From an uncultured Gammaproteobacteria bacterium (GTDB lineage Bacteria; Patescibacteriota; Patescibacteriia; Patescibacteriales; GWE2-39-37), in assembly GCA_964443495.1 (NCBI GenBank), contig CAYUCS010000002.1:23740-87739 (forward strand): a stretch of DNA of 64,000 bases. Direction: 5' to 3'. The notes beneath the pieces are model-generated. The model was given only the letters and a program-made list of their open reading frames with translations. It made no database searches and was not told the origin of the DNA. Of the stretch, positions 7,134-46,712 are shown piece after piece. The stretch's first letter is position 1; every line of letters begins with the position of its first letter. The translations under genes and the position numbers were made by a program.

Positions 7134-8189
7134 TCAGTGAATGAATTTTTTGCAGAATCTGTCAGCTACGTCGAGAATCTTGTCTTTTTCCACCAGTCCA
7201 TCGATCAGTGGTTGCGGAAAGACGGCGGTGCCATTCTTGGCTCCAAGCAGAGCTCCGACGATCGAGGCATTGGTGTCCGTGTCGCCGCCGACGCGGATGG
7301 CGTTGACGACGGCCTGGAAGCTGTCGTGGTCCTTGAGGAAGCAGGCGTAAGCTAGGGGCAAAGAATTGTAGACATAGAAAGGCTTGTCGCCGTAATACTC
7401 TGCTAGGAACGCCAAATCCTTTTTGTAGTGCTTGCCGCACATCAGGTCAGCCATCCTTTCCGAAAGACTGGGCTCGCTTTCAATATCGAAATTGAGCGAT
7501 TCTCTTCTGGCACCAAGCTGCAAGCAGATCATTATTGCGCGTTTGAAGAATGCGGCAGTAAAATCTATGCTGTCCAGCGAATCAAAACAGAGCGACGCCA
7601 CGCCGAACTGCATTACTCCTTGTTCAATGCCCAAGCGCGTACGGTGTGTCATCTGCGCAAGATCGAATAATCCGTCAATGATCTGATTGGCCAAAGTGAG
7701 CGTTTTTACGTGCGGATTTGGTCCAAGACCATTATTGAACGGCAGTTTCCTTAAGGCGAACATCGCGGCCAAAGGCGAAATCTTCATCATCACGCCATTA
7801 CCACTGGTGGGCATTCCAGACTCACTCCAGGACACTCCCGACTTGATGCGTTCGATCGCTGTAAGCGTACCCTTGCCCCAACCCGATGCGCGGTCGTCCA
7901 TGGCCTCGACGTGGCGCCGTGCCATGTCGTCCATATCGATGCGGCCGCAGGCGATCAGCGATTCGGCTATTACCAATGAAAGCTGGGTGTCGTCGGTTAT
8001 GTCGCCGGCCTTGAGCTTGCCGTCGTGGAACTTGTGTCCCGGCGGTGGGTCCTGATAAACCGCGAAGGCCTCGTCCGGCATCGCTAGAAGCTCAGCCGGC
8101 GTAAAAATCTTCTCGAACGGCATCCCCAGAGCGTCGCCGATGGCGATGCCCAGGAACATTCCCTTGACTCTGTCTTTCAAATCGGTCAT
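7134..8189 (-). CDS. ADP-ribosylglycohydrolase family protein (DraG/ARH-like)
   Basis: GIAIGDALGMPFE lies near the N-terminus and GGDTDTNASIVGALLGA near the C-terminus, matching the metal-binding motifs of this family. The start ATG overlaps the upstream stop (ATGA). Confidence 0.8.
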   Translation of the reverse strand: MTDLKDRVKGMFLGIAIGDALGMPFEKIFTPAELLAMPDEAFAVYQDPPPGHKFHDGKLKAGDITDDTQLSLVIAESLIACGRIDMDDMARRHVEAMDDRASGWGKGTLTAIERIKSGVSWSESGMPTSGNGVMMKISPLAAMFALRKLPFNNGLGPNPHVKTLTLANQIIDGLFDLAQMTHRTRLGIEQGVMQFGVASLCFDSLDSIDFTAAFFKRAIMICLQLGARRESLNFDIESEPSLSERMADLMCGKHYKKDLAFLAEYYGDKPFYVYNSLPLAYACFLKDHDSFQAVVNAIRVGGDTDTNASIVGALLGAKNGTAVFPQPLIDGLVEKDKILDVADRFCKKFIH

Positions 8190-13490: not shown

Positions 13491-14231
13491 TTATTTTACT
13501 ATGACGGTACCCGTCATGTATGGGTGGAGCGAGCATCGATAGCTGAACGTCCCGCGCTTCGTGAACTTGTACGTGTAGGTCTGCCCGGCGTAGCGCGTGC
13601 CAGAGCCGAAATCCGGCAACGAAGTGCCGATCTGCGCGATCTGGTGCACGGCTGGATCCTGATTGGTCCAGATGATCGAGTCGCCAAGATTGATGGTGAT
13701 GGTATTCGGGCTGAATTTGAAATTGTACGCCACGACATCATAATTTTTTGCCGATATGACTTCCTTCGGTTCGGGATACCTAGCATCGACCGCGATCTTG
13801 CCGAGGTTAGCGTTGCTGATGCCCAGGCCGAGTTCGCGCATGATCCTGAAGGCGTCGGCCGGACGGCCGAGATAATAACGCTTCAGAGTCGCCGGATTGA
13901 CATACCAGGCTTCGCCGTGGCCCTCCACTTGGATAAGGATGCGCCCAGCCAGCTTGCGGACATAGGTGATATTCTTCTGTTGCTGGCCGATGACAGGAAT
14001 CTTCTCCAGATTGGCATTGCTGATGCCCAGGCCGAGTTCGCGCATGATGTTGAACGCGTCGGCCGGACGTCCCAAGAATGCCCGCCTTCCGTTTTCCGGC
14101 AAGACATACCAGGCCTGGCCCTTGCTTTCGACTTGCAGCAAGATGCGCCCTTTGAGGTCGGTTGCGGCCGAAACCGGAGCGAATGGCAAGATAATCGCTG
14201 CCGCCACTAAGATGATGAGTGTTTTTTTCAT
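13491..14231 (-). CDS. secreted protein with two tandem ~63-aa repeats and a C-terminal cupredoxin (plastocyanin-like) domain
   Basis: It has a signal peptide. The segments GRILLQVESKGQAWYV...RPADAFNIMRELGLGISNANLEKIPV and GRILIQVEGHGEAWYV...RPADAFRIMRELGLGISNANLGKIAV form an internal duplication. The C-terminal H...CSLHPYMTG is a type-1 copper ligand pattern (H, C, H, M). Confidence 0.7.
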   Translation of the reverse strand: MKKTLIILVAAAIILPFAPVSAATDLKGRILLQVESKGQAWYVLPENGRRAFLGRPADAFNIMRELGLGISNANLEKIPVIGQQQKNITYVRKLAGRILIQVEGHGEAWYVNPATLKRYYLGRPADAFRIMRELGLGISNANLGKIAVDARYPEPKEVISAKNYDVVAYNFKFSPNTITINLGDSIIWTNQDPAVHQIAQIGTSLPDFGSGTRYAGQTYTYKFTKRGTFSYRCSLHPYMTGTVIVK

Positions 14232-35985: not shown

Positions 35986-37605
35986 TTATTCCACTGACAG
36001 GAATGTCGAACCGCCGTGATGGGCAATGAATTCGAACAAGGGACGGCTTTTCGCATTGGTGGCGACGAGACTGCGGATTGAGAAGACGCGTAATGCGTCC
36101 GTCAATGACAAGGTCCCCTCGGCCGAATCTTTGCGACCGGTAAAAGGGTAGTTGTCCGGACCGCGCTGGCATTGGCAATTGATGTTGATGCGACAGACCT
36201 GATTGGCCAGCTGATCGATCATGTAGCTGAGCGACTGCGGGTTCTGACCGAAGACGCTCGCCTGCTGTCCGTACTTGGAGTTACGGACGTATTCGAGCGT
36301 TTCTTCGATGTCATCGAAAACCACGATCGGAACTACGGGACCGAACTGCTCTTCGTCGTAAAGCCTCATACCGGCCTTGACCGGGTAGACGACGGCTGGC
36401 ACCATCAAGGATTCGATGAACTCGCCGCCGTGACGATTGATTACCGCCGCTCCCTGAGCCTTGGCATCTTCGATCAATTCGGTCATTGAAGCGGTCTTGT
36501 GCTCCTCGGGCAAGGGCGTGATGCTCACGCTGACGTCCCAAGGCGGGCCGATCTTCAACTGCTCCACGGCTGCCGCAAACTTGGCGCAAAAATTGTCCGC
36601 GATCGACCGGTGCACGAAGATGATCTTCAGGGCTGTACAGCGCTGGCCGTTGTAGCTCAGGCTGCCAGCCAGGCATTCGCTTACCGCGGTGTCCAGATTG
36701 GCCGCCGGCAAGATAATTGCCGGATTCTTGGCTTCGAGCCCCAGGATGCTGCGCAAACGATGCGGATTGGGCGAGGATTTCTTCAGGAGATCCGCCACCC
36801 GGCTCGTGCCGATGAAGGCCAAGCAGTCGATTTTGCCCGATGCGAGCAATGGATTGATGATGGTCTGGCCGTCGCCGTAGACCGTGTTGATGACGCCGCG
36901 CGGAAATACCTCCTTGAAGATCCTGAGCAGCGGGTTGTGCAGCAGCACGCCGATCTTCGGCGGCTTCATGATGACCGTGTTGCCCATGATGAGGGCCGGA
37001 ATCAGCGTCGTGAAGGTTTCGTTCAGCGGATAGTTGAACGGGCCCATACACAGGACGACACCGAGCGGCACTCGCCTAATCTGGGCTGTTACGCCCTCGG
37101 TCTCGACGAAATCGTCAGAGGCGAACTCCAGTTCATAAGCCGCTGCGACCGTGTCACGGATATACTTGACCGTACGGTCGAATTCCTTGATAGAATCAGC
37201 CAGCGACTTGCCGATCTCCCACATCAGGAGGTCGACAACCTCTTCACGGACCTTTTCCATCTCATCAGCCAGTACCGTAAGATACGAGCAGCGCCCCCTG
37301 AGCGAGAGCATCGGCCAGAAGCCGCGTCCCTGGTCGTAAGCAGCAGTTGCAGCTGCCAAGACTTCGAGTGATTCGTTTCCTGTCAGCTGCGGATAATGCC
37401 CCAGAATGACCGGCTCCAAGCCGCCTGCAACCTGCCGATACATGGGTGAATTTACCGTTTGCATCGGGCCGTCCCACTTCTTCAACTCGCCGTCAACCAG
37501 GTAACAATCCTGTTTCACCAATGGTGAGGCAACCCGCGACGCGCGTGCGAACACATCCTCCAGCACTTCCCTTGCACCCCTGTCCGAAGCTTCCGAATTA
37601 GCCAT
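35986..37605 (-). CDS. gapN: non-phosphorylating glyceraldehyde-3-phosphate dehydrogenase-like aldehyde dehydrogenase (GapN-like)
   Basis: GPFNYPLNETFTTLIPALIMGNTVIMKPP, LEAKNPAII and NGQRCTALKIIFV resemble GapN-type ALDH motifs. At 539 aa it is longer than typical GapN. Confidence 0.65.
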   Translation of the reverse strand: MANSEASDRGAREVLEDVFARASRVASPLVKQDCYLVDGELKKWDGPMQTVNSPMYRQVAGGLEPVILGHYPQLTGNESLEVLAAATAAYDQGRGFWPMLSLRGRCSYLTVLADEMEKVREEVVDLLMWEIGKSLADSIKEFDRTVKYIRDTVAAAYELEFASDDFVETEGVTAQIRRVPLGVVLCMGPFNYPLNETFTTLIPALIMGNTVIMKPPKIGVLLHNPLLRIFKEVFPRGVINTVYGDGQTIINPLLASGKIDCLAFIGTSRVADLLKKSSPNPHRLRSILGLEAKNPAIILPAANLDTAVSECLAGSLSYNGQRCTALKIIFVHRSIADNFCAKFAAAVEQLKIGPPWDVSVSITPLPEEHKTASMTELIEDAKAQGAAVINRHGGEFIESLMVPAVVYPVKAGMRLYDEEQFGPVVPIVVFDDIEETLEYVRNSKYGQQASVFGQNPQSLSYMIDQLANQVCRININCQCQRGPDNYPFTGRKDSAEGTLSLTDALRVFSIRSLVATNAKSRPLFEFIAHHGGSTFLSVE

Positions 37606-37887
37606 TGCGGCCTCCTTTATTTGGCATCGATATTCGACGCCGGTTGTGGAATTTTACTTCCTAAATTTGTCGAATGAACAGTTCGAAACCATAACATTTT
37701 TCACCACTTATGTCAATATTGTCTCCCTTTTCTTAATAAAAGAAAGCCCGGCTATCTGCCAGGCTTTTTCATTTGCAACCCTGATACCATGATCAAGATT
37801 AAATTCTAGAAAAAAAGAGCTTGAGGGCGCTAAACGCAGTTTCATTGAGCAATCTCAAATAGTCAGCCCTGCTTGGGTGCTCAAAAA

Positions 37888-38478
37888 TCAAGTTTCCATG
37901 CCGCTCGCCATAACAAAACCGGCGATGCGCTTAGAAAAAATCTCGCCCGGATAACCGAAGTCCTGAAGGCCGGACACGAATGCTTCTGCATCTTCCTGAT
38001 CAGTTGATACGATCATGATAAAAGGCGGCTTGTGCAGACCTGGAAGCCCATCATCACCTATAATGTGCTTTTCCACGTCAAAGGTGGTAATTGCCAAGAG
38101 GCCAATCCCTGGGTCCATTTTTCCTTTCAGCTTTTCAACGATTTCATCGACACGCCCCTCTTTGGCGTGGACCGCGACATATCCGGCCCACTGTCTGAAA
38201 CCGTCAATCTTGCCAACAGTCAGGCAATCTGATGACACAACATGGGTTGCGACACCTGTTCTCTGAAGCATGATCCTGGCATAGAAATCGCCTTCGTCCA
38301 TGCTGTCGCCGTCATAGCCATAGAGAATGATCGCTTCCCCGTCGATCTCCGCCTCTTTCGCGAGAGTGGTTGTAGTAACCTCGTCGGTCATTCCCAAGCG
38401 CTCCGCCAAAGCCCTTACGTTGTCAACGCAAATCCTCGCCCTGATTAGGTCCCTGTCAACAATTGTCACGTTCAGCAT
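37888..38478 (-). CDS. hypothetical protein
   Basis: It is a 196-aa ORF with an AAAGGAGAAAG SD. No motif was recognised. Confidence 0.5.
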   Translation of the reverse strand: MLNVTIVDRDLIRARICVDNVRALAERLGMTDEVTTTTLAKEAEIDGEAIILYGYDGDSMDEGDFYARIMLQRTGVATHVVSSDCLTVGKIDGFRQWAGYVAVHAKEGRVDEIVEKLKGKMDPGIGLLAITTFDVEKHIIGDDGLPGLHKPPFIMIVSTDQEDAEAFVSGLQDFGYPGEIFSKRIAGFVMASGMET

Positions 38479-38524
38479 AGCCGCTTTCTCCTTTCGGTGC
38501 GTTCATTTTTTTGACAATCTTGGC

Positions 38525-39013
38525 CTACTCACAATCCCTAGCAAAACAGCTCCAGCCAACTTTCGGATATACGCCGCTGAAGCTCACAATTACTGTGCCT
38601 TGCGTAAAGGAAATGAAATTCCACTCCTTACCTGATTCTGTGGGCCATTCGGTCGATATACCAAGCGCATGATCATGGTCAAGGTCCGGAAAAAGCCCGA
38701 CTACGGCGGCAAGCTCGAAAGGCATAACTTCCCGGCACTCCCGCTTCTTATTCTCCTTGTCCTTGTCGATTCCCTTAGCAGAATACTCGAAGAAAATCTC
38801 GACTTTTTTTCCGCCAGTTACTGGCATGCTTTTGACCCTGTCGGCGCGGCCAAATACTTTTCTCCCGGTTGCATCGAGCATCTCCTGGGCCGTGCGGCCA
38901 TAGACCGGTTCGACAACCACACGATAAATCGTATCCGCATTCTCCTTTAACAACATCCCGATTTCCGACAAATCAACAACTTTCTTCTCGGTTTTGTACA
39001 TGTCACCCCCCAT
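38525..39013 (-). CDS. hypothetical protein
   Basis: It is a 162-aa ORF. An alternative start at the second ATG (MYKTEKK) follows a G-rich stretch. No motif was recognised. Confidence 0.5.
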   Translation of the reverse strand: MGGDMYKTEKKVVDLSEIGMLLKENADTIYRVVVEPVYGRTAQEMLDATGRKVFGRADRVKSMPVTGGKKVEIFFEYSAKGIDKDKENKKRECREVMPFELAAVVGLFPDLDHDHALGISTEWPTESGKEWNFISFTQGTVIVSFSGVYPKVGWSCFARDCE

Positions 39014-39291
39014 TTGCTTTTGTGATTGACTTCAGAAATGGCTTATTTCAGAATATTGAAACGCTCAACTATCAAAGAACCTGCTTGAGACGGTTTAGTC
39101 CTAGCGATTGGTTATAATGACATAACATGGCAACAATGTCTAGTCAGACCGGCTTGGCGCCCTCAGGCTATTCACTATTTCCTGAACATCATCCGTGATT
39201 TATAAAGAATACTTCGAGCGTCTTTCTCGAGAAGCTTTGAAATAAAAAAACAAGGCTGATTTAGCCTTGTTTTTTTATTTTACTAACTCGT

Positions 39292-39717
39292 CTATAAATC
39301 TTCGCCCATCTCCCTCTCCAAATTGGCATTTTCTTCACTTCTTACGCCAGCCCTGTAGGCCGATGATTGCAGGGATTCGAGAATCAAAACCTTGTACAGC
39401 GGTCCCTTGTCAAGCAAGGCCATAAGATTGTTTTTTTGATCACCCAATTTGTTTGAGTCGTCAATATCTAAAATTCTTTTCGTGCTTTCTTTGACTACGG
39501 ACTCGATAAACCTAGCCAAATCTTTCAAGGCTTCTTGAGTTCCACCATTGATATAATCGATGGCAGACTCGCCCTCCTTGATGTCCAAAAGCGCTCGCTC
39601 CTGGTCCTCGACACTAATTTCCGGATCAGCCGGATTGCGCTCTTTCTCTCTCGCCTTATTAATCTTGTCAAATGCCAGTTGCTTTTCTGGGCTAAATTCT
39701 GGGGCTCTGAAATTCAT
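39292..39717 (-). CDS. hypothetical acidic protein
   Basis: It is a 141-aa ORF in a locally AT-richer stretch. No motif was recognised. Confidence 0.45.
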   Translation of the reverse strand: MNFRAPEFSPEKQLAFDKINKAREKERNPADPEISVEDQERALLDIKEGESAIDYINGGTQEALKDLARFIESVVKESTKRILDIDDSNKLGDQKNNLMALLDKGPLYKVLILESLQSSAYRAGVRSEENANLEREMGEDL

Positions 39718-39781
39718 AATATTATTTATAATTACATTACTAAAATTATATTACTTTAAAACCAATACATCAATGATTAAG

Positions 39782-40993
39782 CTAGCGCCATACCGCCTCA
39801 ACCTCCCTTGGCGACCTGACGCTCATTCCTTGAAGAATCAGAACCGGTAGAAGAATCAGTCCGATTGCGATACCGAAGTACATATAGCCGAATGACAATC
39901 CATTTTGACTGACGAGCCGCGAAAGCACGAGCGGCAGCCACAGCGTGCTGACCAAAGTGAAAAACGTCATCACGGAAATAAGCGTCGCTTTATAGCCGGA
40001 TGCGTTGAACTCATCGAACAGCTGAGCTTCGAAAATTATATTGCGCGTCCGGTCGTATGCCGGAAACAACGCGAAGGCCAGCACTATCGCAACCGCATTA
40101 TGAATAAGGCCGACCAAAATCAATAGCAGCACCAGATATGCTGCGTCGAAAAAATAAAACGCGCTCGGCGAAAGCTTCCGCAGATGATGGATCTTGGTTC
40201 CGCCATAAGCGGCAAGAAGGCTCCCGATCGCCAGCAAGAAGCCGAACCACTCGACCGGAATCCCGTTTTCCCTGAACATGATCTCCCTATACATCGATGA
40301 CTGGTCGAAGCCGGATGAGACGATCCCGAAAATCAGGAAGACGAAAAACATTCTCAGAAGCGGCATCTCCTTGGACGCCTTGAGCAACCTTTTCAAAGAA
40401 CCCCTCTTGCCAGCTTTTTGGACTTCGACGTGGACCCTTGGAACCCTCATTGAATAGACCAGCAAGAAAGTCGCGAACAGGCAAAAAAAGCCGACTATGA
40501 AAGGCATTCTCGGATCCAGCTTATACGTCAGCGGGACGAGCCCGACCAGAAAGACATTGCCGATCAGGCCGAAGCTTTGAGCCTTTCCCATTATGCTGCT
40601 GTACTCACGGTCCCGTCCGAGCTCTTTCAACGTCTCGTGCATGAACGCTTGCATCGTTCCGGAGGCAAAGGCCATGCCTCCGAAATACCCGGCAGAGCCG
40701 ATCAGTCCGCCGACAAATCCCGGAAAAAATACGTACGGCAAAACCGACACCGCGCTGATGAATGAACCGACCAGCAAAGCGAATTTGTGGCCGAACCTAT
40801 CCGCGAAGTACCCGGATGGAATTTCCAGGATGAGCTGCACGATGCCTGTCACGCTCGCGATGATGCCAAGCTCTTTCAAATTTACGCCGCCGCGATCGAC
40901 AAGATAAATCGCGATCAAAGGCAAATAGACCCTCTTGGTGAAGATCTTATAATAATTGTATTTTATGATATTTTTTTCCAACTGCTCAGTCAT
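39782..40993 (-). CDS. MFS transporter
   Basis: It has about 12 hydrophobic helices and a GYFADRFGHK motif (MFS loop 2-3, D-R-x-G-R/H-K-like). Confidence 0.75.
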   Translation of the reverse strand: MTEQLEKNIIKYNYYKIFTKRVYLPLIAIYLVDRGGVNLKELGIIASVTGIVQLILEIPSGYFADRFGHKFALLVGSFISAVSVLPYVFFPGFVGGLIGSAGYFGGMAFASGTMQAFMHETLKELGRDREYSSIMGKAQSFGLIGNVFLVGLVPLTYKLDPRMPFIVGFFCLFATFLLVYSMRVPRVHVEVQKAGKRGSLKRLLKASKEMPLLRMFFVFLIFGIVSSGFDQSSMYREIMFRENGIPVEWFGFLLAIGSLLAAYGGTKIHHLRKLSPSAFYFFDAAYLVLLLILVGLIHNAVAIVLAFALFPAYDRTRNIIFEAQLFDEFNASGYKATLISVMTFFTLVSTLWLPLVLSRLVSQNGLSFGYMYFGIAIGLILLPVLILQGMSVRSPREVEAVWR

Positions 40994-41114
40994 ATCTGCT
41001 TTTTTGGTTTTTGAATTGCATACATAATATATGCTTACAACAATATTATATCACAAGTTCTGTATTCCTGATTTATTAAAATAAAGGGGCTGCGAAGCAA
41101 CCCCTTGGGAATCA

Positions 41115-41558
41115 TCAAACAACAACCACTCGATAATCAGCCACGACCCGCTCTCTCAGCAGAGAAACTATTCTCGCCTTAAGGTCGGCATTGCCAGCAT
41201 AAACCTGAATCAGGGGCAATTCAGCACCTCTGTGGGCTATCCGAACCTTGTCGGATATACCGAGCTCGCTTTCGCGAATTACCCGGCGCACCTCGGCTCC
41301 GAGACCATTCGTGTGATAAATCGTGATTTCAGGTTCGGCACACTGCATTGTTACTTTTCTCGCGGCATCAATGGCGTACCCCGAAAGTGAGTTTACCTGA
41401 AGGAAGCCGCCCCCTTTTGGCGCATTGTTCCTGAAGTGAGCCAGCAATAAGGCCTGTGCTGCAACTTCACCAATTTTGAGTGCCGCTTCTTCGTATGCTT
41501 TTTCGCCCGATTTCTCGAATAGCTCCACCACCTCGTTTATCTGTTCGATTCCTGGCAT
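41115..41558 (-). CDS. hypothetical protein
   Basis: It is a 147-aa ORF with a GAAGGGAGGA SD. No motif was recognised. Confidence 0.5.
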   Translation of the reverse strand: MPGIEQINEVVELFEKSGEKAYEEAALKIGEVAAQALLLAHFRNNAPKGGGFLQVNSLSGYAIDAARKVTMQCAEPEITIYHTNGLGAEVRRVIRESELGISDKVRIAHRGAELPLIQVYAGNADLKARIVSLLRERVVADYRVVVV

Positions 41559-41703
41559 ACTCTTTATCCTCCCTTCGAGTGATTTGTTGTTGAAAATAAA
41601 AAGTGCAATTATAAATTAAAGCACATTTTTTACTTTTTGTCCAGTGCACTACGTGTTCCTTTAGCTAAAAATAGCCTAAATTAGGGCAATTTTCATATTG
41701 TAT

Positions 41704-41927
41704 AGGGAGAAGAAGTTACGAAATCACTCGCTCGCCGTCGCGAGCTAGTTTTTTGTCCTGGGTGGCGCTGAATACTACCTGTTCGGTCACATTCGTCGGC
41801 GTCGACTAAACTTCCTGCCGAAAGAAGTTCTGCAGAAAGTTTGCCCCCCCCCTGCTGCCCGTTCGATTTCTTCATATCGCCTATATCAATAAAAACAACG
41901 CACCAGATTGCTGGTGCGTTGTTTTTA
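41704..41927 (+). repeat. left (decayed) copy of the ~220-bp structured element plus terminator that also precedes tRNA-Trp
   Basis: By hand alignment it matches 45943-46164, roughly 80-85 percent identical over the central ~130 nt and weaker over the first ~50 nt. It includes its own terminator hairpin AACAACGCACCAG-ATTG-CTGGTGCGTTGTT plus a T-run. A C9 tract sits where the right copy has TCAC. Confidence 0.7.
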
Positions 41928-41930
41928 TTG

Positions 41931-41953
41931 CACACCCCAACGAAGCGTGCCAT
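41931..41953 (-). pseudogene. possible decayed remnant of the 3' part of tRNA-Trp
   Basis: CACACCCCAACGAAGCGTGCCAT aligns loosely to CACGGGGTGAAGGAATCGAACCCTCGCCAT of the intact tRNA-Trp. It occupies the same position relative to the repeat unit. Confidence 0.3.
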
Positions 41954-42037
41954 GACTTTTTTTAAGAAAATACTGAGTATATTTATATCCCGGTTTTAAA
42001 AAATTAATGACTGTGTCGTCGATATGACTATATACAA

Positions 42038-44281
42038 TTATGAATTAACATCAATTGGAACAGAAACTCTCGACTCAATCTCTATCATGCTCTCTATTTC
42101 CTCGTGCAAATCAATGGTGTCATCTTCAAACATATCTTCTATTGTTAAAACGATTGAATATTTTTGCCTATAGTCTCCGGCGATAGTAAAATCCTCGTCT
42201 TTCAATTCACACACAACGTCAATATACCAAAATTTTCCGGCATGGTTGGTTGTTGAGAACTCTTTAGTTGGATAATTTTTTACATTTGATTTTTGGTGCG
42301 CCCCTCCATACGTTTCTCGAGTACTCAAACCGCCCTGAGCTTTTCGATCATCCCTTAATAGCTGCGCCGATATATTGATTGGATTATAAAGCCTTGGGTT
42401 GCTTGGATTTGTTATTGGATTATAAACAAGAGTTTTACGGATGCGTAAGCGTTTTAAATGACTACCTGATATACATGATGGAATTGGAAATTTAATCGTT
42501 TTTGTTGTTCCTATCTTAATTTCATCTTCTATAACAATAGTAGTGGAGTTGCTCAAGGAATTTACAGCCCTTTCCATGTTTGGCATTCCAAATCCAACCA
42601 AAGAACTCTTCATCGTAAGATCGCCAATCTCAGAAGCATCAATGTTATCAGAAAAATGCACTAATAAAGCCTTTAATGTATTGCAGCTATAATTCGGGTA
42701 TTGGCCACTTAACTTCGCCAGCTCGTGAGTGATTAAAGGCGTTGAAAAACTTGTGCCATATGATTTTATTATTTCATTATTAACATCCGACGCTGTTGTT
42801 ATGCCATTATATTCAGGAGTAAAATCTTTTTTAAAATTTGAATCATAATGAACAAAATCTGGCTTTATAAAAGGAGAGTCATCAACATTGCCTCTGGTGT
42901 GTGGGGCTGGATGTTTTATTCTAGTAATCGAGTCAACGCTCTCCTGATAAGTCACAGAACCAACTGAAATATTATTAATACTATCAGCAGGTGGCAAAAT
43001 TCTAGAAAATTTAAAGGCAAAATGGGATGGATATCCAACCCTTTTACATGCTTCAACAAATTCATCTTCCCAAAACTGAAACAAGTTACCAACAGAAACA
43101 ACAAATATACAGTTATATTTATTCGCCAACTCATCAAGTAAGGCGGTTAGATTATGAATCGTTTTTACTCCTCCAAAATATGTAGTGTAGTTGTTTATTG
43201 ATAAATTTATTATCAATTGCTGATATTCAGCAGCTAGCCGTGGAACAATGTCTGCAATTCTTTCATCTAACTTAAAGGGGTTATCCTCTAAAACATTTGC
43301 TGATATAACGTGATTTTCTTGTTGAATTTCTTGATTATTGTTAAGCTGCATGCCTGCTATAACTAAACTTGCAACAGCGGTGCCATGCCACATATCACCA
43401 CTATTAGATCCAATACAATCCTTAACAGCCCTATCAAGCAATACATGCTCTTTATTTACCGGTCCATCAAAAATAATTACTGGCCTATTCTCGTTTTGAG
43501 GGGGATTAACTTTTAAATGAGATATGTCGTCTCTCATGGCCGAAAGCATTAATTCATACTTTGGAGCCTGATTAATACGGATGATTTCGTCATATTTTTT
43601 GACTATTTCTTTTACATCTTGAAAATTAACTTTTAGACGGCAATAATGAAGCCTTTCCGTATTTATTTTAGATATAAGTTTATCTTCTAACTCGCCTTCA
43701 ATGCTCGACAACTTTTGATCAAGATCATTTTTTTTGCCAGCGAATGACACATCAACAAAGAAATCCTGGCTAGGATTATTTTTAAACTTCTTCTTTAAAT
43801 CTTTTTCAATTATTTCATTAAGAGTTAATGGTTGAATAGACTTTACTTTATTGAAATAGGATTTAAGCGCATCGTTATTGGCATAATTTAAAACATCGTT
43901 TTTGAATTTTTCAAAATCCGAATTTCTCTGATTCCTAAGCTTGTCATTGCTAATGCTGCCGATAATAAGCTCGTTTTTATTACGATCAATATCTTTTTTG
44001 TAAACACTTACACGATATTTAGCGAGAAATTTTCTATCAAGTGGGCCATTAAATTTCACCAACACCTCACTCCTGGTTTTTTCAGGCTCAACATGCACAG
44101 ATTTTAACTTCTTCTCGAAATAAGAACTTACATGATTAATCCCGACAGACAAATGATTTTTTTGACGAGCAAAATTTATATCTTTTGAATATTGAGGGAA
44201 GCCATGCTTAGCAGCAACATAAGAACTCTCACCTGAAATCAGTGACTTTGGCAGCACTATGTGACTATATTTCTTGGCCAT
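42038..44281 (-). CDS. S8-family subtilisin-like serine protease with ~270-aa N-terminal domain of unknown function (IetS-like)
   Basis: The catalytic triad contexts are Asp in VIIFDGPV, His in MWHGTAVASLVIAG and Ser in SYGTSFSTPLITH. The gene starts 1 nt after the AAA+ gene stop and has AT-rich codon usage unlike the flanking genes. Confidence 0.8.
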   Translation of the reverse strand: MAKKYSHIVLPKSLISGESSYVAAKHGFPQYSKDINFARQKNHLSVGINHVSSYFEKKLKSVHVEPEKTRSEVLVKFNGPLDRKFLAKYRVSVYKKDIDRNKNELIIGSISNDKLRNQRNSDFEKFKNDVLNYANNDALKSYFNKVKSIQPLTLNEIIEKDLKKKFKNNPSQDFFVDVSFAGKKNDLDQKLSSIEGELEDKLISKINTERLHYCRLKVNFQDVKEIVKKYDEIIRINQAPKYELMLSAMRDDISHLKVNPPQNENRPVIIFDGPVNKEHVLLDRAVKDCIGSNSGDMWHGTAVASLVIAGMQLNNNQEIQQENHVISANVLEDNPFKLDERIADIVPRLAAEYQQLIINLSINNYTTYFGGVKTIHNLTALLDELANKYNCIFVVSVGNLFQFWEDEFVEACKRVGYPSHFAFKFSRILPPADSINNISVGSVTYQESVDSITRIKHPAPHTRGNVDDSPFIKPDFVHYDSNFKKDFTPEYNGITTASDVNNEIIKSYGTSFSTPLITHELAKLSGQYPNYSCNTLKALLVHFSDNIDASEIGDLTMKSSLVGFGMPNMERAVNSLSNSTTIVIEDEIKIGTTKTIKFPIPSCISGSHLKRLRIRKTLVYNPITNPSNPRLYNPINISAQLLRDDRKAQGGLSTRETYGGAHQKSNVKNYPTKEFSTTNHAGKFWYIDVVCELKDEDFTIAGDYRQKYSIVLTIEDMFEDDTIDLHEEIESMIEIESRVSVPIDVNS

Positions 44282-44282
44282 A

Positions 44283-45374
44283 TTATTCTGATAATACGTA
44301 GTTCTTATAAGAATTCCTATGGATATTTAACAAATTTGATATGCCTGATTTTGAATACCCATTACTTTCTAGCATTTTACACAATTTGCTTAATAGGTTA
44401 ATATTTTCCTTTTTCAGGTCTTTTGGCCGAGCCATGTAGTCCTCCATAAACACAACTTCTATAAAATTTGCCAGGTCAAGCTTTTGAATATGTTCAAACA
44501 TCATATTCATTTTCACTTTCTTGAAAAAGACATCAATATCATCAATCGTGTTTATTTGCAAAAAATCAAAAATCTTTACCAAAAAAGTAATATCTTTCTT
44601 AGATAAAGAATTATTAACCCCTAAAAGCTTATACTCCAAAAACGATTGCTTTTCTTGTGTATTTAACGCACCAACATAGACTTTGTAGGAGAACCTTCTA
44701 AGTATGGCTGGATCAATTGTATCAATAAGATTTGTAGCAACGATTATTATCCTTCCATTTGCTTGAAAATCGAGAGTTTGAATAAGCGAATTCACGATTC
44801 TTTTTAATTCTCCCACGTCATTACCTTCTTCTCTGGATTTTGCCAATGCATCAAATTCGTCAATAAAAATAATACTATCTGATGTTGACTCAAATAAATC
44901 AGATATATTTCTCATTGTTTCACCAAGCTTCGAAGAAATTACATCTGTGATTTTTACATAATTGATTGGCTTACCAAGCCTACTGGAAATATAGAACCCT
45001 AGTGTAGTTTTTCCACTACCTGGTGGTCCATACAATAAAATTTTATTTAACAGTTCAGTTTCGCTATCGCCTTGTTTTTGCTGATGCTGATAATACGCTA
45101 TAAATTTATCTACCCTAACTTTCACTGAATCCATCATCCATTCAAAATTATTCAGAACATCGTCAGCTTTTGAGCGTGAAATACGAGCGCCGCTTTGGGC
45201 ATAATTAGATTTTGATCTATCAATCAACTCGAGAAGTTTTTTATACGTTGAATGCCTATTATTATTTATCTCATTAGCCGCTAAATCCTCAACCAGCTCA
45301 ATAAGCATTTTTTTATCACCTCTGAGTCCATGTTCAATAATCTTATACAATAGTTGTTGGTTTAAATTTGGCAT
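44283..45374 (-). CDS. classical-clade AAA+ ATPase (IetA-like)
   Basis: It has Walker A LLYGPPGSGKTT, Walker B IIFIDEFDAL, sensor-1 VATN and the Arg-finger region DPAILRRF. It has a single AAA module with a ~100-aa N-terminal and ~90-aa C-terminal extension. Confidence 0.8.
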   Translation of the reverse strand: MPNLNQQLLYKIIEHGLRGDKKMLIELVEDLAANEINNNRHSTYKKLLELIDRSKSNYAQSGARISRSKADDVLNNFEWMMDSVKVRVDKFIAYYQHQQKQGDSETELLNKILLYGPPGSGKTTLGFYISSRLGKPINYVKITDVISSKLGETMRNISDLFESTSDSIIFIDEFDALAKSREEGNDVGELKRIVNSLIQTLDFQANGRIIIVATNLIDTIDPAILRRFSYKVYVGALNTQEKQSFLEYKLLGVNNSLSKKDITFLVKIFDFLQINTIDDIDVFFKKVKMNMMFEHIQKLDLANFIEVVFMEDYMARPKDLKKENINLLSKLCKMLESNGYSKSGISNLLNIHRNSYKNYVLSE

Positions 45375-45401
45375 GGGAAAATTATATGAATAAATGTGGG
45401 T

Positions 45402-45441
45402 TGCACAATTTTATTATAACATTATATTTTTGTGCAGTAAA
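45402..45441 (-). promoter_or_regulatory. putative promoter of the AAA+/S8 operon, bracketed by a 7-bp inverted repeat (candidate operator)
   Basis: On the minus strand it reads TTTACT (45441..45436), a 17-nt spacer, then TATAAT (45418..45413). TGCACAA (45402..45408) and TTGTGCA (45430..45436) flank the -10. Confidence 0.45.
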
Positions 45442-45629
45442 CAATATTTTTTATTTAAAATTAGTCTAAAAAAAATAATAATACAAATTACAAATGAGGA
45501 TCTGTGGACAATATCAATTTCAACCAACACTTATAACAGCCTTTTGACCAGACGTTATATGGTATTACAAGAAGATGCCCAAGGTGAGCGAGGAGCTTCA
45601 AGAAAGAAGGCCGGACTACAAAACTAATT

Positions 45630-45941
45630 TCCAAATTAAGGCACAAGCTTAAAGAAACTAGGAAGCGAGCAGGCCCTTAGCTGTAATTGTCGGAGCGAGC
45701 TCTCGGATTCGCTTCAGGCGCTTGCCTGACATTTGAAGTGGGAGAGATTAAAAGTAAGCGTGAAATATTTAGAACTATCAGCTCGGAGTTCGTTTTAACC
45801 AATAAACAATCAGGCCCCACGCCAAATTATTGGATCCAGATCATTGCAGATGGAAATAAGGAAATGACAAACTCAGAACTAACTGATTTAGATCAAAATA
45901 ACAGAATAACAGCTGATATTTCAGTCACCCTTCCAGCCTAG
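45630..45941 (+). pseudogene. disrupted XRE-family helix-turn-helix gene remnant
   Basis: The frame reads SKLRHKLKETRKRAGP*L*LSERALGFASGACLTFEVGEIKSKREIFRTISSEF. This resembles the XRE HTH pattern (LRxLRxxxGLSxxxLAxxxGxSxxxISxxExG) but carries two in-frame stops at 45678 and 45684. Confidence 0.3.
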
Positions 45942-45942
45942 C

Positions 45943-46164
45943 GCGGGGTGAAGGAACTTCGCCTCAACTGCGCTTCCGCTCCGTCTTCGTTGCCCTGGGC
46001 AGCGCTGAATGTTCCCTATTCGGTCACATTCATCGGCGTTCGGCTAAACTTTCTGCCGACAGAAATTCGGCAGAAAGTTTGCCTCACTGCTGCCCGTTCG
46101 ATTCCTTCACGTCTCCTATATCAAAAAGCAAGGCGCACCAGATTACTGGTGCGCCTTGCTTTTT
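45943..46164 (+). ncRNA. candidate structured RNA (right, well-preserved copy of the repeat unit), convergent with tRNA-Trp
   Basis: P1 pairs 45948-45956 GTGAAGGAA with 46102-46110 TTCCTTCAC. P2 pairs 45997-46003 GGGCAGC with 46089-46095 GCTGCCC. The P3 hairpin pairs 46006-46012 with 46026-46032. The P4 hairpin (17 bp, one bulge) pairs 46042-46059 with 46067-46083. It ends in the shared terminator. The 5' end is the reverse complement of the tRNA-Trp acceptor/T-stem 3' strand. Confidence 0.35.
46128..46164. terminator. bidirectional intrinsic terminator shared by tRNA-Trp and the candidate RNA
   Basis: GCAAGGCGCACCAG-ATTA-CTGGTGCGCCTTGC is a 14-bp perfect stem flanked by A5 and T5 runs. Confidence 0.7.
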
Positions 46165-46237
46165 GGCACGGGGTGAAGGAATCGAACCCTCGCCATAGGT
46201 TTTGGAGACCCACGTACTACCATTATACTAACCCCGC
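46164..46237 (-). tRNA. tRNA-Trp (anticodon CCA), CCA end encoded
   Basis: I folded the cloverleaf by hand. The acceptor is GCGGGGU/ACCCCGU, the anticodon stem-loop is UGGGU-CUCCAAA-ACCUA, the T-arm is GAGGG-UUCGAUU-CCUUC, and the 3' end is GCCA. Confidence 0.9.
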
Positions 46238-46521: not shown

Positions 46522-46543
46522 GGTGGGCCGAGCATGATTCGAA
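46522..46543 (-). repeat. duplicated 3' fragment of tRNA-Tyr (T-loop to acceptor) in the rpmG upstream region
   Basis: GTGGGCCGAGCATGATTCGAA (46523-46543) is identical, 21 of 21, to 46629-46649 at the 3' end of the intact tRNA-Tyr ~85 nt away. It is followed by a GGGGTTAAACCCC hairpin. Confidence 0.6.
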
Positions 46544-46629
46544 GGGGTTAAACCCCACGCCGAAAGGCATTTTCTCCTACATACTCAGCTCATCAAAAAG
46601 AATAATTGCAAATGCAATTTTCCTTTTTG

Positions 46630-46712
46630 TGGGCCGAGCATGATTCGAACATGCGAAGGCGAAAGCCAGCAGATTTACAGTCTGCCCCAGTTGACCGCTT
46701 TGGTATCGACCC
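46630..46712 (-). tRNA. tRNA-Tyr (anticodon GUA), long variable arm, CCA not encoded
   Basis: In my hand fold the acceptor is GGGUCGA/UCGGCCC, the anticodon arm is GCAGA-CUGUAAA-UCUGC, the variable arm is UGGCUUUCGCCUUC, and the T-arm is GCAUG-UUCGAAU-CAUGC. Confidence 0.85.

What the first reader, a model, noticed from the sequence alone, without database searches (positions are those of the whole stretch)
45943..46164. Candidate novel structured RNA convergent with tRNA-Trp, containing a mimic of the tRNA-Trp 3' end
On the plus strand the R repeat folds by hand into a closed multi-helix structure. P1 pairs GUGAAGGAA (45948-56) with UUCCUUCAC (46102-10). P2 pairs GGGCAGC (45997-46003) with GCUGCCC (46089-95). 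P2 encloses two hairpins, P3 (7 bp) and P4 (17 bp with one bulged U). The structure ends in a 14-bp terminator that it shares head-to-head with tRNA-Trp. Comparing the diverged L copy gives sense-specific evidence for an RNA. In P2 the change CA->UG gives U-G and G-U wobbles, which would be A-C mismatches on the other strand. In P1 one G-C pair becomes A-U through a double substitution, and two other changes give G-U. The base of the terminator stem differs (AAGGC/GCCUU versus CAACG/CGUUG) but stays complementary. The 3' strand of P1 with its upstream GUUCGAUUCC copies the T-loop and T-stem of tRNA-Trp. The 5' strand of P1 is the reverse complement of the tRNA acceptor/T-stem 3' strand. The RNA could therefore base-pair with, or mimic, tRNA-Trp. 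I cannot match it to any RNA family I know.
Basis: partly seen in the sequence, partly recalled or inferred. Interest (0 to 1): 0.7.

Follow-up and report, generated by a model that had tools for sequence, protein, structure and literature searches.

The report
Gene-less mini-element inserted in tRNA-Trp
The supposed new RNA gene is one copy of a small, gene-less, hairpin-rich DNA element that inserts into the 3' end of tRNA genes in CPR bacteria. It rebuilds the tRNA end and leaves a displaced copy behind, so its "tRNA mimicry" is an insertion footprint; whether it also makes a functional RNA is open.

Summary
The helices, the L/R repeat pair and the matches to tRNA-Trp are real and not chance. 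The interpretation needs revising.

- **R is an insertion.** R (45941-46165) is a 225-nt insertion compared with three sister Falkowbacteria contigs. It is flanked by a 16-nt direct repeat of the tRNA-Trp 3' end. The 5' strand of P1 is that displaced tRNA fragment. The 3' strand of P1 is an inverted copy of the T-loop and T-stem.
- **There is a family.** I found three homologous elements in other CPR genomes: two at tRNA-Trp and one at tRNA-Tyr. Each is flanked by a repeat of its own tRNA's 3' end, starting inside the T-loop. Each carries an inverted T-arm copy that matches its own tRNA.
- **The fold is conserved but not strand-specific.** P1 to P3 survive compensatory change and the bodies are GC-rich. 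Nothing favours one strand, no promoter is evident, and Rfam has no match.
- **Context.** L and R bracket a 4.2-kb low-GC IetAS defence island with a truncated large serine recombinase gene. Intact recombinases of this kind abut tRNA-Trp in several relatives.

Best reading: a miniature element with no recombinase of its own (CIME-like) that integrates at tRNA genes. A functional RNA is not excluded.

The parts
46164..46237 (-). tRNA-Trp (CCA), the target gene. Its 3' part from mid-T-loop onward (46166-46181, TTCCTTCACCCCGTGC) is direct-repeat copy 1.
   Evidence: ARAGORN; Rfam tRNA, 63.9 bits; repeat coordinates.
46122..46165 (.). H_R: a perfect 20-bp palindrome with a 4-nt loop, an A-run on one side and a T-run on the other. 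It abuts the CCA end of the tRNA. Probably a bidirectional intrinsic terminator.
   Evidence: I19. Six compensated and no uncompensated changes against L. The base of the stem resembles the native tRNA-Trp terminator of L015.
46096..46110 (+). Inverted copy of the tRNA-Trp T-loop and 3' T-stem (GTTCGATTCCTTCAC). Its last 9 nt (46102-46110) form the 3' strand of P1.
   Evidence: Equivalent inverted copies in L032, L056 and L044 match their own tRNAs.
45957..46095 (.). Body of the R element, 56% GC: a 5' linker, P2 (45997-46003 / 46089-46095), P3 (46006-12 / 46026-32) and P4 (46042-46083). It carries two motifs conserved across the family: TTGYCCTGGG(T)CAGCGC and CTG(C/A)CC(C/T)GTYCGAWTCC.
45941..45956 (-). 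Direct-repeat copy 2 of the tRNA-Trp 3' end (TTCCTTCACCCCGCGC on the minus strand), i.e. the displaced or duplicated att core. On the plus strand, 45948-45956 is the 5' strand of P1.
   Evidence: Alignment A2 shows R as an insertion between the two repeat copies, compared with L015, L016 and L017.
45633..45941 (+). C-terminal remnant of a large serine recombinase gene (aa 422-529 of the L016 protein, 46% identity), convergent with the tRNA. The tblastn match runs to 45956, into repeat copy 2; the remnant ORF stops at 45941. The N-terminal ~420 codons are missing.
   Evidence: tblastn; blastn against L016 and L017.
42038..45374 (-). IetA (44283-45374) and IetS (42038-44281) defence genes, the cargo of the 34% GC island that lies between L and R.
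   Evidence: PADLOC: IetA 1e-62, IetS 2e-60; Pfam AAA and Peptidase_S8; GC content.
41700..41930 (.). L element, 83% identical to R. It has a decayed repeat of the tRNA 3' end (41700-41715), a body, an inverted T-arm copy (41861-41875, GTTCGATTTCTTCAT) and the palindrome H_L (41887-41930). GTGCAA, resembling the end of the tRNA, lies on the IetS side of H_L; its TTG overlaps the last 3 bases of H_L (41928-41933 on the plus strand).

Best explanation
R is one unit of a small family of gene-less elements of about 185-230 nt, which I call E. They sit at the 3' end of tRNA genes in Falkowbacteria and Kerfeldbacteria (CPR).

**Unit layout, read in the tRNA sense**
1. The tRNA 3' end from mid-T-loop onward.
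2. A perfect palindromic terminator.
3. A short spacer.
4. An inverted copy of the T-loop and 3' T-stem.
5. A GC-rich hairpin body (P2, P3, and a variable P4).
6. A second, direct copy of the tRNA 3' end.

**How it most likely works**
E behaves like a miniature integrative element that encodes no recombinase of its own (CIME-like). It recombines site-specifically within the T-loop of the tRNA gene. It supplies a new tRNA 3' end together with a terminator and pushes the old 3' end outward as a direct repeat. It relies on a recombinase supplied in trans. The most likely candidates are the large serine recombinases carried by islands at the same tRNA-Trp site.

**History of this window**
An array of two E units (R and L) sat downstream of tRNA-Trp. 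A low-GC island carrying the recombinase and IetAS then integrated into the inner repeat copy. This separated the two units, and the recombinase gene later decayed.

**Shown versus inferred**
- Shown: the insertion polymorphism, the flanking repeats, the family, the conserved fold, and the recombinase neighbourhood.
- Inferred: the order of events, mobilisation in trans, and the idea that the inverted copy and the perfect palindrome are kept matched by template-switch correction of quasi-palindromes.
For: 1. **R is an insertion.** Sister contigs L016 and L017 are 95% identical in the flank, and L015 is an empty site. In all three the tRNA reads straight through where the window has R between two copies of TTCCTTCACCCCG[T/C]GC.
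2. **Homologous elements exist elsewhere.**
   - L032, at tRNA-Trp, has a 17-nt direct repeat.
   - L056, at tRNA-Trp, has a 217-nt unit present 1.38 times, with an 82-nt perfect repeat.
   - L044, at tRNA-Tyr, has a 21-nt repeat with 2 mismatches.
   - Support: nhmmer E-values of 7e-43, 9e-42 and 1e-4; covariance-model E-values of 1.5e-6, 4e-4 and 0.07.
3. **Every repeat starts in the 3' half of the T-loop.** Every inverted copy matches its own tRNA, including the unusual GTCCGATT T-loop of L032.
4. **E occurs only beside tRNA-Trp or tRNA-Tyr.** The survey covered 90 tRNAs over about 0.6 Mb of related loci.
5. **Recombinase neighbourhood.** Serine recombinase genes abut tRNA-Trp in L016/17, L044, L061/66, L060/65 and L033. 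The window keeps a C-terminal remnant next to repeat copy 2.
6. **Synteny with L015 ends exactly at the tRNA-Trp terminator**.
7. **Published precedent.** In Dehalococcoides, serine-recombinase islands insert in the middle of the ssrA T-loop. They have 20-bp direct repeats, form tandem arrays and include members without an integrase (PMC3146451). The CIME and accretion concepts are defined in PMC5704250.
8. **The fold is selected.** 94.6% of cells are paired, and 15 pairs show changes on both sides, against 0-1 in the slid controls. Body GC is 55-63% in loci of 40-52% GC.
Against: - No excised form, circular junction or recombinase activity has been shown.
- E was not seen at the far end of any other serine-recombinase island; the contigs were too short to tell.
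- The 82-nt perfect repeat in L056 is longer than a site-specific core needs. It fits tandem duplication or homologous recombination equally well.
- A serine recombinase does not need about 200 bp of structured flanking DNA, so the conserved GC-rich hairpins have no explained role at the DNA level. They may instead reflect an RNA.
- There are only five copies in four genomes. E32 and E56 (the L032 and L056 copies) are close relatives, so the covariation amounts to about one deep split plus E44 (the L044 copy).
- Exact-pattern scans of metagenome and viral collections found no further copies.
Confidence: 0.55

Rival explanations
1. E is primarily a structured non-coding RNA gene: a plus-strand RNA ending at the shared terminator. 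Its 5' segment is antisense to the tRNA-Trp 3' end, so it could pair with or mimic the tRNA. The flanking repeats would then be secondary, or the RNA would be the payload of the mobile unit.
For: - The P1-P3 architecture is conserved with compensatory changes.
- The P3 stem has three unrelated sequences in R/L, E32/E56 and E44, and all of them pair.
- The body is GC-rich in AT-richer genomes, as is typical of structured RNAs.
- The element ends in a strong terminator. That the terminator has only Watson-Crick pairs suggests transcription arrives from both sides.
- Slightly more cells pair on the plus strand, because all 7 G-U cells are on the plus strand.
- No Rfam family matches.
Against: - R has about 60 base pairs and no G-U pair, and the reverse strand folds as well or better.
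- One-sided changes between L and R split 5: 3: 2.
- The plus-strand bias in P1 follows from C-to-T decay of the unconstrained, pyrimidine-rich inverted copy.
- No promoter-like site lies upstream of R. L has an internal plus-strand terminator-like site.
- In L056 the unit is preceded directly by another terminator.
- E44 lies in a spacer within a tRNA operon, where the opposite strand is the one expected to be transcribed.
- The inverted copy tracks the tRNA outside P1.
- The 'T-loop' has no T-stem, and neither ARAGORN nor the Rfam tRNA model hits it.
Confidence: 0.2
2. E is a non-mobile scar. On this view it is what remains after larger islands that targeted the tRNA gene decayed in a deletion-prone CPR genome. 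The tRNA-proximal terminator is kept by selection, and the hairpins are kept perfect by template-switching within palindromes. The fold would have no function of its own.
For: - Other short inserts flanked by a repeat of the tRNA 3' end, but without an E body, occur at tRNA-Tyr: in the window (46523-46628; also in L016/17, absent in L015), in L046, and in L032 where the insert carries a GIY-YIG ORF.
- The L copy is visibly decaying.
- Perfect palindromes with concerted double changes fit quasi-palindrome correction.
- The recombinase gene next to R is truncated.
Against: - Independent random decay should not leave homologous bodies of about 135-160 nt. Yet such bodies, with the same motif order, occur in four genomes and at two different tRNAs, each with repeats specific to its host tRNA.
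- The compensatory changes and GC enrichment argue for selection.
- R is absent from relatives that are 95% identical, and L056 has an 82-nt perfect repeat. Both indicate recent gain rather than old residue.
Confidence: 0.2
3. E is a classical MITE: a transposase-dependent element with terminal inverted repeats (P1) that is scattered over many loci.
For: - The element is small, non-coding and palindromic.
- P1 looks like 9-bp terminal inverted repeats.
- There are two copies in one window.
Against: - One P1 arm is simply the duplicated tRNA 3' end, and the other lies about 55 nt inside the element.
- The flanking repeat is a specific 16-22-nt tRNA sequence, not a short duplication of fixed length.
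- All five copies are at tRNA-Trp or tRNA-Tyr, and none is elsewhere in the window or in about 0.6 Mb of related loci.
- BLAST against plasmids and phages found nothing.
Confidence: 0.05

Closest known systems
Cis-mobilizable elements (CIMEs) and tandem accretion at tRNA genes (Pavlovic 2004; reviewed in PMC5704250)
   Same: It lies at the 3' end of a tRNA gene, is bounded by a direct repeat of that end (attL/attR), and has no integrase or transfer genes. It sits in tandem with another, decayed island.
   Different: Described CIMEs are kilobase-sized decayed ICEs or IMEs. E is about 200 nt and has no gene remnants. Across genomes and across two tRNAs it shows a conserved GC-rich fold and an inverted T-arm copy.
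Dehalococcoides ssrA genomic islands with a CcrB-like serine recombinase (PMC3146451)
   Same: The serine recombinase gene is adjacent to and convergent with the target RNA gene. [quoted passage not shown] There are tandem arrays, and some members lack an integration module.
   Different: The target here is tRNA-Trp or tRNA-Tyr in CPR bacteria. That paper does not describe a gene-less structured unit of about 200 nt with an inverted T-arm copy. Whether these recombinases act on E is untested.
MITEs and palindromic intergenic repeats (Correia, REP/BIME, ERIC)
   Same: They are small, non-coding and hairpin-forming, can act as terminators, and depend on enzymes supplied in trans.
   Different: Those families are multi-copy and dispersed, with short target duplications. 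E is low-copy, strictly linked to tRNA genes, and flanked by a long repeat specific to its target.
tRNA-like RNAs (tmRNA, YrlA, viral tRNA-like structures)
   Same: E contains a T-loop sequence (GUUCGAUUCC) and an acceptor-strand sequence identical to a tRNA.
   Different: There is no T-stem closing the loop, no acceptor helix and no CCA context on the plus strand. Neither ARAGORN nor Rfam gives a hit.

Membership tests
Any Rfam 15 RNA family | A covariance-model score at or above the family's gathering threshold | tested here: not met
   Only the three tRNAs pass in the window. In E-value mode on R, L044 and L056, the only matches are sub-threshold hairpin look-alikes (miRNA precursors, and BjrC68 at 29 bits against a threshold of 39).
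tRNA or tRNA-like RNA | A T-loop closed by a T-stem, stacked on an acceptor helix | tested here: not met
   The bases 5' of GTTCGATT (GCCCG) do not pair with CCTTC. In the fold, the T-loop-like bases are a junction or part of P1. ARAGORN and RF00005 find nothing on the plus strand.
tRNA-gene-integrated island or CIME | Located at the 3' end of a tRNA gene and bounded by a direct repeat of that 3' end | tested here: met
   15 of 16 nt match at 46166-46181 and 45941-45956. The same arrangement holds in L032 (17 nt), L056 (17 to 82 nt) and L044 (21 nt, 2 mismatches).
tRNA-gene-integrated island or CIME | Present or absent at the same site in close relatives | tested here: met
   R is absent in L016 and L017 (95% identity in the flank), L015 and L030.
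tRNA-gene-integrated island or CIME | No integrase or transfer genes inside the element (this is what distinguishes a CIME) | tested here: met
   The element is 225 nt. The only open frames are incidental and lie on different strands in R and L. tblastn with the serine recombinases finds nothing inside R or L.
tRNA-gene-integrated island or CIME | Excision and integration by a cognate recombinase acting on attL and attR | not testable with these tools
   This needs read-level junction evidence or an assay. All I have is the co-occurrence of serine recombinases at the same tRNA.
tRNA-gene-integrated island or CIME | Derived by decay from a larger ICE or IME | tested here: inconclusive
   There are no gene remnants inside E, and the body is conserved rather than random residue. 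E's GC content is like the host's and unlike that of the adjacent island.
MITE | Terminal inverted repeats, a short fixed-length target duplication, and many dispersed copies | tested here: not met
   The inverted repeat is subterminal and one arm is the att repeat. All five copies are at tRNA-Trp or tRNA-Tyr.
Bidirectional intrinsic terminator (the 46122-46165 hairpin) | A GC-containing stem flanked by an A-run on the 5' side and a T-run on the 3' side, so that both strands read as hairpin plus U-tract | tested here: met
   The sequence is CAAAAAGCAAGGCGCACCAG-ATTA-CTGGTGCGCCTTGCTTTTTG. It has only Watson-Crick pairs, and the same holds in L, L032 and L056. Termination itself was not tested. 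The simple scan did not flag it, because the T-run lies inside the stem.

The most novel reading that the evidence does not exclude
E could be a new class of gene-less mobile element that homes to tRNA genes, in which nucleic-acid structure does part of the work. The internal inverted T-arm segment, always matched to the host tRNA, would act as a guide or pairing partner for the target T-arm, as DNA or RNA. The conserved GC-rich P2/P3 core would recruit a host or island recombinase. Alternatively, its transcript could be a regulatory RNA that pairs with the 3' end of tRNA-Trp or tRNA-Tyr.
Probability: 0.12. Interest if true: 0.8.

Novelty: new variant of a known kind. Interest (0 to 1): 0.45.

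Why it matters
The case shows that the tRNA "mimicry" in a candidate RNA can be the footprint of site-specific integration. It also defines a previously undescribed family of structured, gene-less units of about 200 nt that target the T-loop of tRNA-Trp and tRNA-Tyr genes in CPR bacteria.

If the units are mobile, they would be the smallest known elements that integrate at tRNA genes. They would mark a hotspot where defence islands, here IetAS, are exchanged in reduced genomes. They would also offer a tractable substrate for studying serine recombinases that target tRNA genes.

If the fold works as RNA, it is a new RNA family linked to tRNA loci.

Tried and rejected
- **Exact-pattern scans for more copies.**
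  - CTGCTGCCCGTTCGATT in viral contigs gave 13 hits. All were chance matches: 12 copies of one unrelated sequence plus one other.
  - GGTCACATTC-N{50,80}-CCCGTTCGATT gave 1 viral hit and 10 metagenome hits, all chance.
  - CCTGGGCAGCGC-N{65,95}-CTGCCCGTTCGA in viral contigs gave none.
  - These patterns need exact matches, so absence of hits is weak evidence.
- **BLAST of R** against plasmids and phages found no match.
- **blastn of R and L** against 19 related loci found nothing. The relatives were found only by looking for the architecture, and then with nhmmer and a covariance model.
- **Coding potential.** A 107-aa frame stays open across R on the plus strand, and 225 nt is exactly 75 codons. 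In L, however, the open frame is on the minus strand, and the other copies have none. I rejected this as chance.
- **E as the terminal module of the low-GC IetAS island.** Disfavoured, because E is 49-54% GC, like the host, while the island is 34% GC.
- **A tRNA-like fold on either strand, an integron attC site, an IS110 bridge RNA, group II intron EBS/IBS pairing, or a retroviral-type primer-binding site.** I considered these from memory and dropped them. The segment layout does not fit, and no matching enzyme gene was seen in what I examined.
- **The automatic MAFFT + RNAalifold alignment of the five copies.** It misaligns P2 and P3, so I used a covariance-model-guided alignment of four copies instead. 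That alignment is fitted to the structure and so leans towards it.

Full report
**What is there**

The window comes from a Candidatus Falkowbacteria (CPR) genome. The closest records carry that name. On the minus strand the order is tRNA-Thr, tRNA-Tyr, rpmG (L33, 46283-46438) and tRNA-Trp (46164-46237).

Immediately 3' of tRNA-Trp lies the R repeat (45941-46165). A copy that is 83% identical, L, lies at 41700-41930. Between them is a 4.2-kb segment of 34% GC in a genome of about 54% GC. It carries IetA and IetS (PADLOC 1e-62 and 2e-60) plus about 560 nt of non-coding sequence.

**Checking the observation**

All four helices are at the stated coordinates. The terminator is a perfect 20-bp palindrome, not 14 bp, and it abuts the CCA end of the tRNA. 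R folds far better than shuffles (z = -8.8), but so does its reverse complement (z = -9.8).

The claimed sense-specific evidence from L does not hold up. The wobble pairs in P1 and P2 are real. L also has an A-A mismatch in P1, two mismatches in P3 and two in P4. Over P1 to P4 the one-sided changes split as 5 compatible with the plus strand only, 3 with the minus strand only and 2 with neither, with one compensatory double change. Only the terminator shows clean compensation, with 6 double changes and no single ones.

**R is an insertion flanked by a repeat of the tRNA 3' end**

Three related contigs were recovered through their identical L33 protein. L016 and L017 are 95% identical to the window upstream of tRNA-Trp, and L015 is 83-94% identical.

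In all three the tRNA reads ...GGTTCGA|TTCCTTCACCCCGTGC and continues into other sequence. In the window, 225 nt are inserted between two copies of TTCCTTCACCCCG[T/C]GC, at 46181-46166 and 45956-45941.

The 3' strand of P1 belongs to an exact 15-nt inverted copy of the T-loop and 3' T-stem (46096-46110). Neither match is chance, at about 3e-6 and 2e-7.

What follows repeat copy 2 is homologous (65% DNA identity, 46% protein identity) to the 3' end of a 558-aa large serine recombinase gene. In L016 and L017 that gene abuts tRNA-Trp. The window keeps only the part equivalent to aa 422-529.

**A family of such elements**

No sequence search with R or L found relatives at first. Looking instead for the architecture downstream of tRNA-Trp in related loci found three more copies.

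| Copy | Contig and target | Key features |
|---|---|---|
| E32 | L032, tRNA-Trp | 20-bp perfect hairpin; inverted copy of its own T-arm (GAGGGAATCGGAC, matching the unusual GTCCGATT T-loop); P2-like helix; 17-nt repeat of the tRNA 3' end at the contig end |
| E56 | L056, tRNA-Trp | 82-nt block (tRNA 3' end, hairpin, spacer, inverted T-arm) present twice and identical, around a 135-nt body; i.e. a 217-nt unit present 1.38 times |
| E44 | L044 (Kerfeldbacteria), between tRNA-Tyr and tRNA-Thr | Inverted copy and 21-nt repeat match tRNA-Tyr |

An nhmmer profile built from the four copies known at that point found E44. A covariance model built from R and L alone also recovers the relatives: E32 at E = 1.5e-6, E56 at 4e-4 and E44 at 0.07.

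All bodies share the motifs TTGYCCTGGG(T)CAGCGC and CTG(C/A)CC(C/T)GTYCGAWTCC. Every repeat begins in the 3' half of the T-loop. No copy was found away from tRNA-Trp or tRNA-Tyr, among 90 tRNAs in about 0.6 Mb of related loci or elsewhere in the window.

**Is the fold selected, and on which strand?**

In a model-guided alignment of R, L, E32 and E56, 94.6% of cells pair. Fifteen of 40 pairs change on both sides, including 4 of 7 in P2 and 5 of 7 in P3. The slid controls give 0-1 such pairs, and the covariation score is 0.42 against 0.23 in shuffles.

Two caveats apply. The alignment is fitted to the structure. The four rows are two close pairs, so this is essentially one deep comparison. E44 adds a third, unrelated P3 stem that also pairs.

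P4 is a perfect hairpin only in R, is decayed in L, and is weak in E32 and E56. The 5' linker is missing in E44. Bodies are 55-63% GC in loci of 40-52% GC.

So a conserved folded core (P1, P2, P3) is real. Nothing, however, assigns it to a strand:
- R has about 60 pairs and no G-U.
- Minimum free energies favour the minus strand in R, neither strand in L, E32 and E56, and the plus strand in E44.
- The few G-U pairs on the plus strand sit where the unconstrained, pyrimidine-rich inverted copy has undergone C-to-T changes.
- No promoter-like site precedes R, and L has a plus-strand terminator-like site inside it.
- In L056 a terminator directly precedes the unit.
- E44 lies in a tRNA operon spacer, where the tRNA-sense strand is the one expected to be transcribed.
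- Rfam gives nothing at either threshold.

**Context: a hotspot for serine-recombinase islands**

Large serine recombinase genes abut tRNA-Trp in L016/17, L044, L061/66 and L060/65 (convergent with the tRNA) and in L033 (divergent). Synteny between the window and L015 ends exactly at the tRNA-Trp terminator.

This mirrors the Dehalococcoides ssrA islands. [quoted passage not shown] Those islands form tandem arrays, and some members lack an integrase and are interpreted as cis-mobilizable elements (PMC3146451; CIME definition in PMC5704250).

**Most likely history and mechanism** (inference)

E units integrate at the T-loop of the tRNA gene. They bring a replacement 3' end together with a bidirectional terminator, and they leave the old 3' end as the distal repeat.

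The window originally had two tandem units: tRNA, R, repeat, L, decayed repeat. L056 shows such a tandem directly.

The low-GC recombinase-IetAS island then integrated at the inner repeat. This explains three things:
- why repeat copy 2 reads GCGC rather than GTGC;
- why GTGCAA, the end of a tRNA-like core, sits next to H_L on the island side;
- why E is host-like in GC content while the island is not.

The recombinase gene later lost its first ~420 codons.

The perfectly Watson-Crick palindromes, and an inverted copy that tracks the tRNA even outside P1, are best explained by quasi-palindrome correction through template switching against the selectively constrained tRNA arm. I did not test this.

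**Verdict**

The feature is real and not ordinary. It is better described as a miniature, gene-less element that integrates at tRNA genes, or as its att-bearing module, than as a stand-alone RNA gene that mimics tRNA-Trp. A functional transcript from either strand remains possible and is the main open question.

Noticed in passing
window 46523-46628 (minus strand, 3' of tRNA-Tyr 46629-46712): A second mini-insertion at a tRNA gene. About 105 nt (an imperfect A/T-rich hairpin, filler, and a GGGGTTTAACCCC hairpin) are flanked by a perfect 21-nt direct repeat of the tRNA-Tyr 3' end (GTGGGCCGAGCATGATTCGAA at 46523-46543 and 46629-46649). It is present in L016 and L017, and absent in L015, where the tRNA runs straight into the downstream sequence. 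It has no E-type body.
   Followed up: partly
L032 7347-7656 (3' of tRNA-Tyr 7263-7346): A cassette of about 310 nt encodes a small GIY-YIG nuclease-like ORF (MNWFYVYILISLKDQKLYIGF...). It is flanked by a perfect 30-nt direct repeat covering the whole T-arm and 3' end of tRNA-Tyr, and a GC hairpin lies just before the distal repeat. L046 has a 167-nt gene-less insert of the same layout at tRNA-Tyr.
   Followed up: partly
window 41931-45940: A 34% GC island in a genome of about 54% GC carries an IetA/IetS anti-phage system. Next to it is a large serine recombinase gene truncated to its last ~108 codons. Where the recombinase ORF is intact (L016), its last 35 codons are encoded by the antisense strand of tRNA-Trp.
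   Followed up: partly
L034 5872-5990 and L050 758-870 (3' of tRNA-Trp): Two unrelated contigs share a different conserved motif between tRNA-Trp and a terminator (TGTGTAAWAT...CACCTGAAATTACA, with GTGTAAT/ATTACAC able to pair). This may be another structured element linked to tRNA-Trp.
   Followed up: no
L062 3508-3640 (3' of tRNA-Trp): tRNA-Trp is followed by a pseudo-T-arm (GGGGTGGTTCGATACCC). At +75 there is an inverted copy of its own T-arm (AGGGAATCGAAC), followed by a terminator. In sister contigs of the same population the same tRNA is followed instead by two different serine-recombinase islands (L060/65 and L061/66).
   Followed up: no
L032 9845-9916 and L033 2564-2637: The tRNA-Trp genes have an unusual T-loop, TCCGATT, with C where the near-universal pseudouridine-55 position normally has T. 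The variant is copied into the inverted segment of the E element in L032.
   Followed up: no
window 37600-41700: The region to the left of L has lower GC (40-52%) than the rest of the window and shares no synteny with L015 downstream of tRNA-Trp. It contains an MFS transporter gene and several ORFs with no Pfam hit. It may be older island material in the same variable region.
   Followed up: no
window 13788-14150: Two direct-repeat pairs, 75-84% identical and each offset by 204 nt (13788-13868 with 13992-14072, and 13892-13946 with 14096-14150). This is probably a tandemly duplicated coding segment.
   Followed up: no
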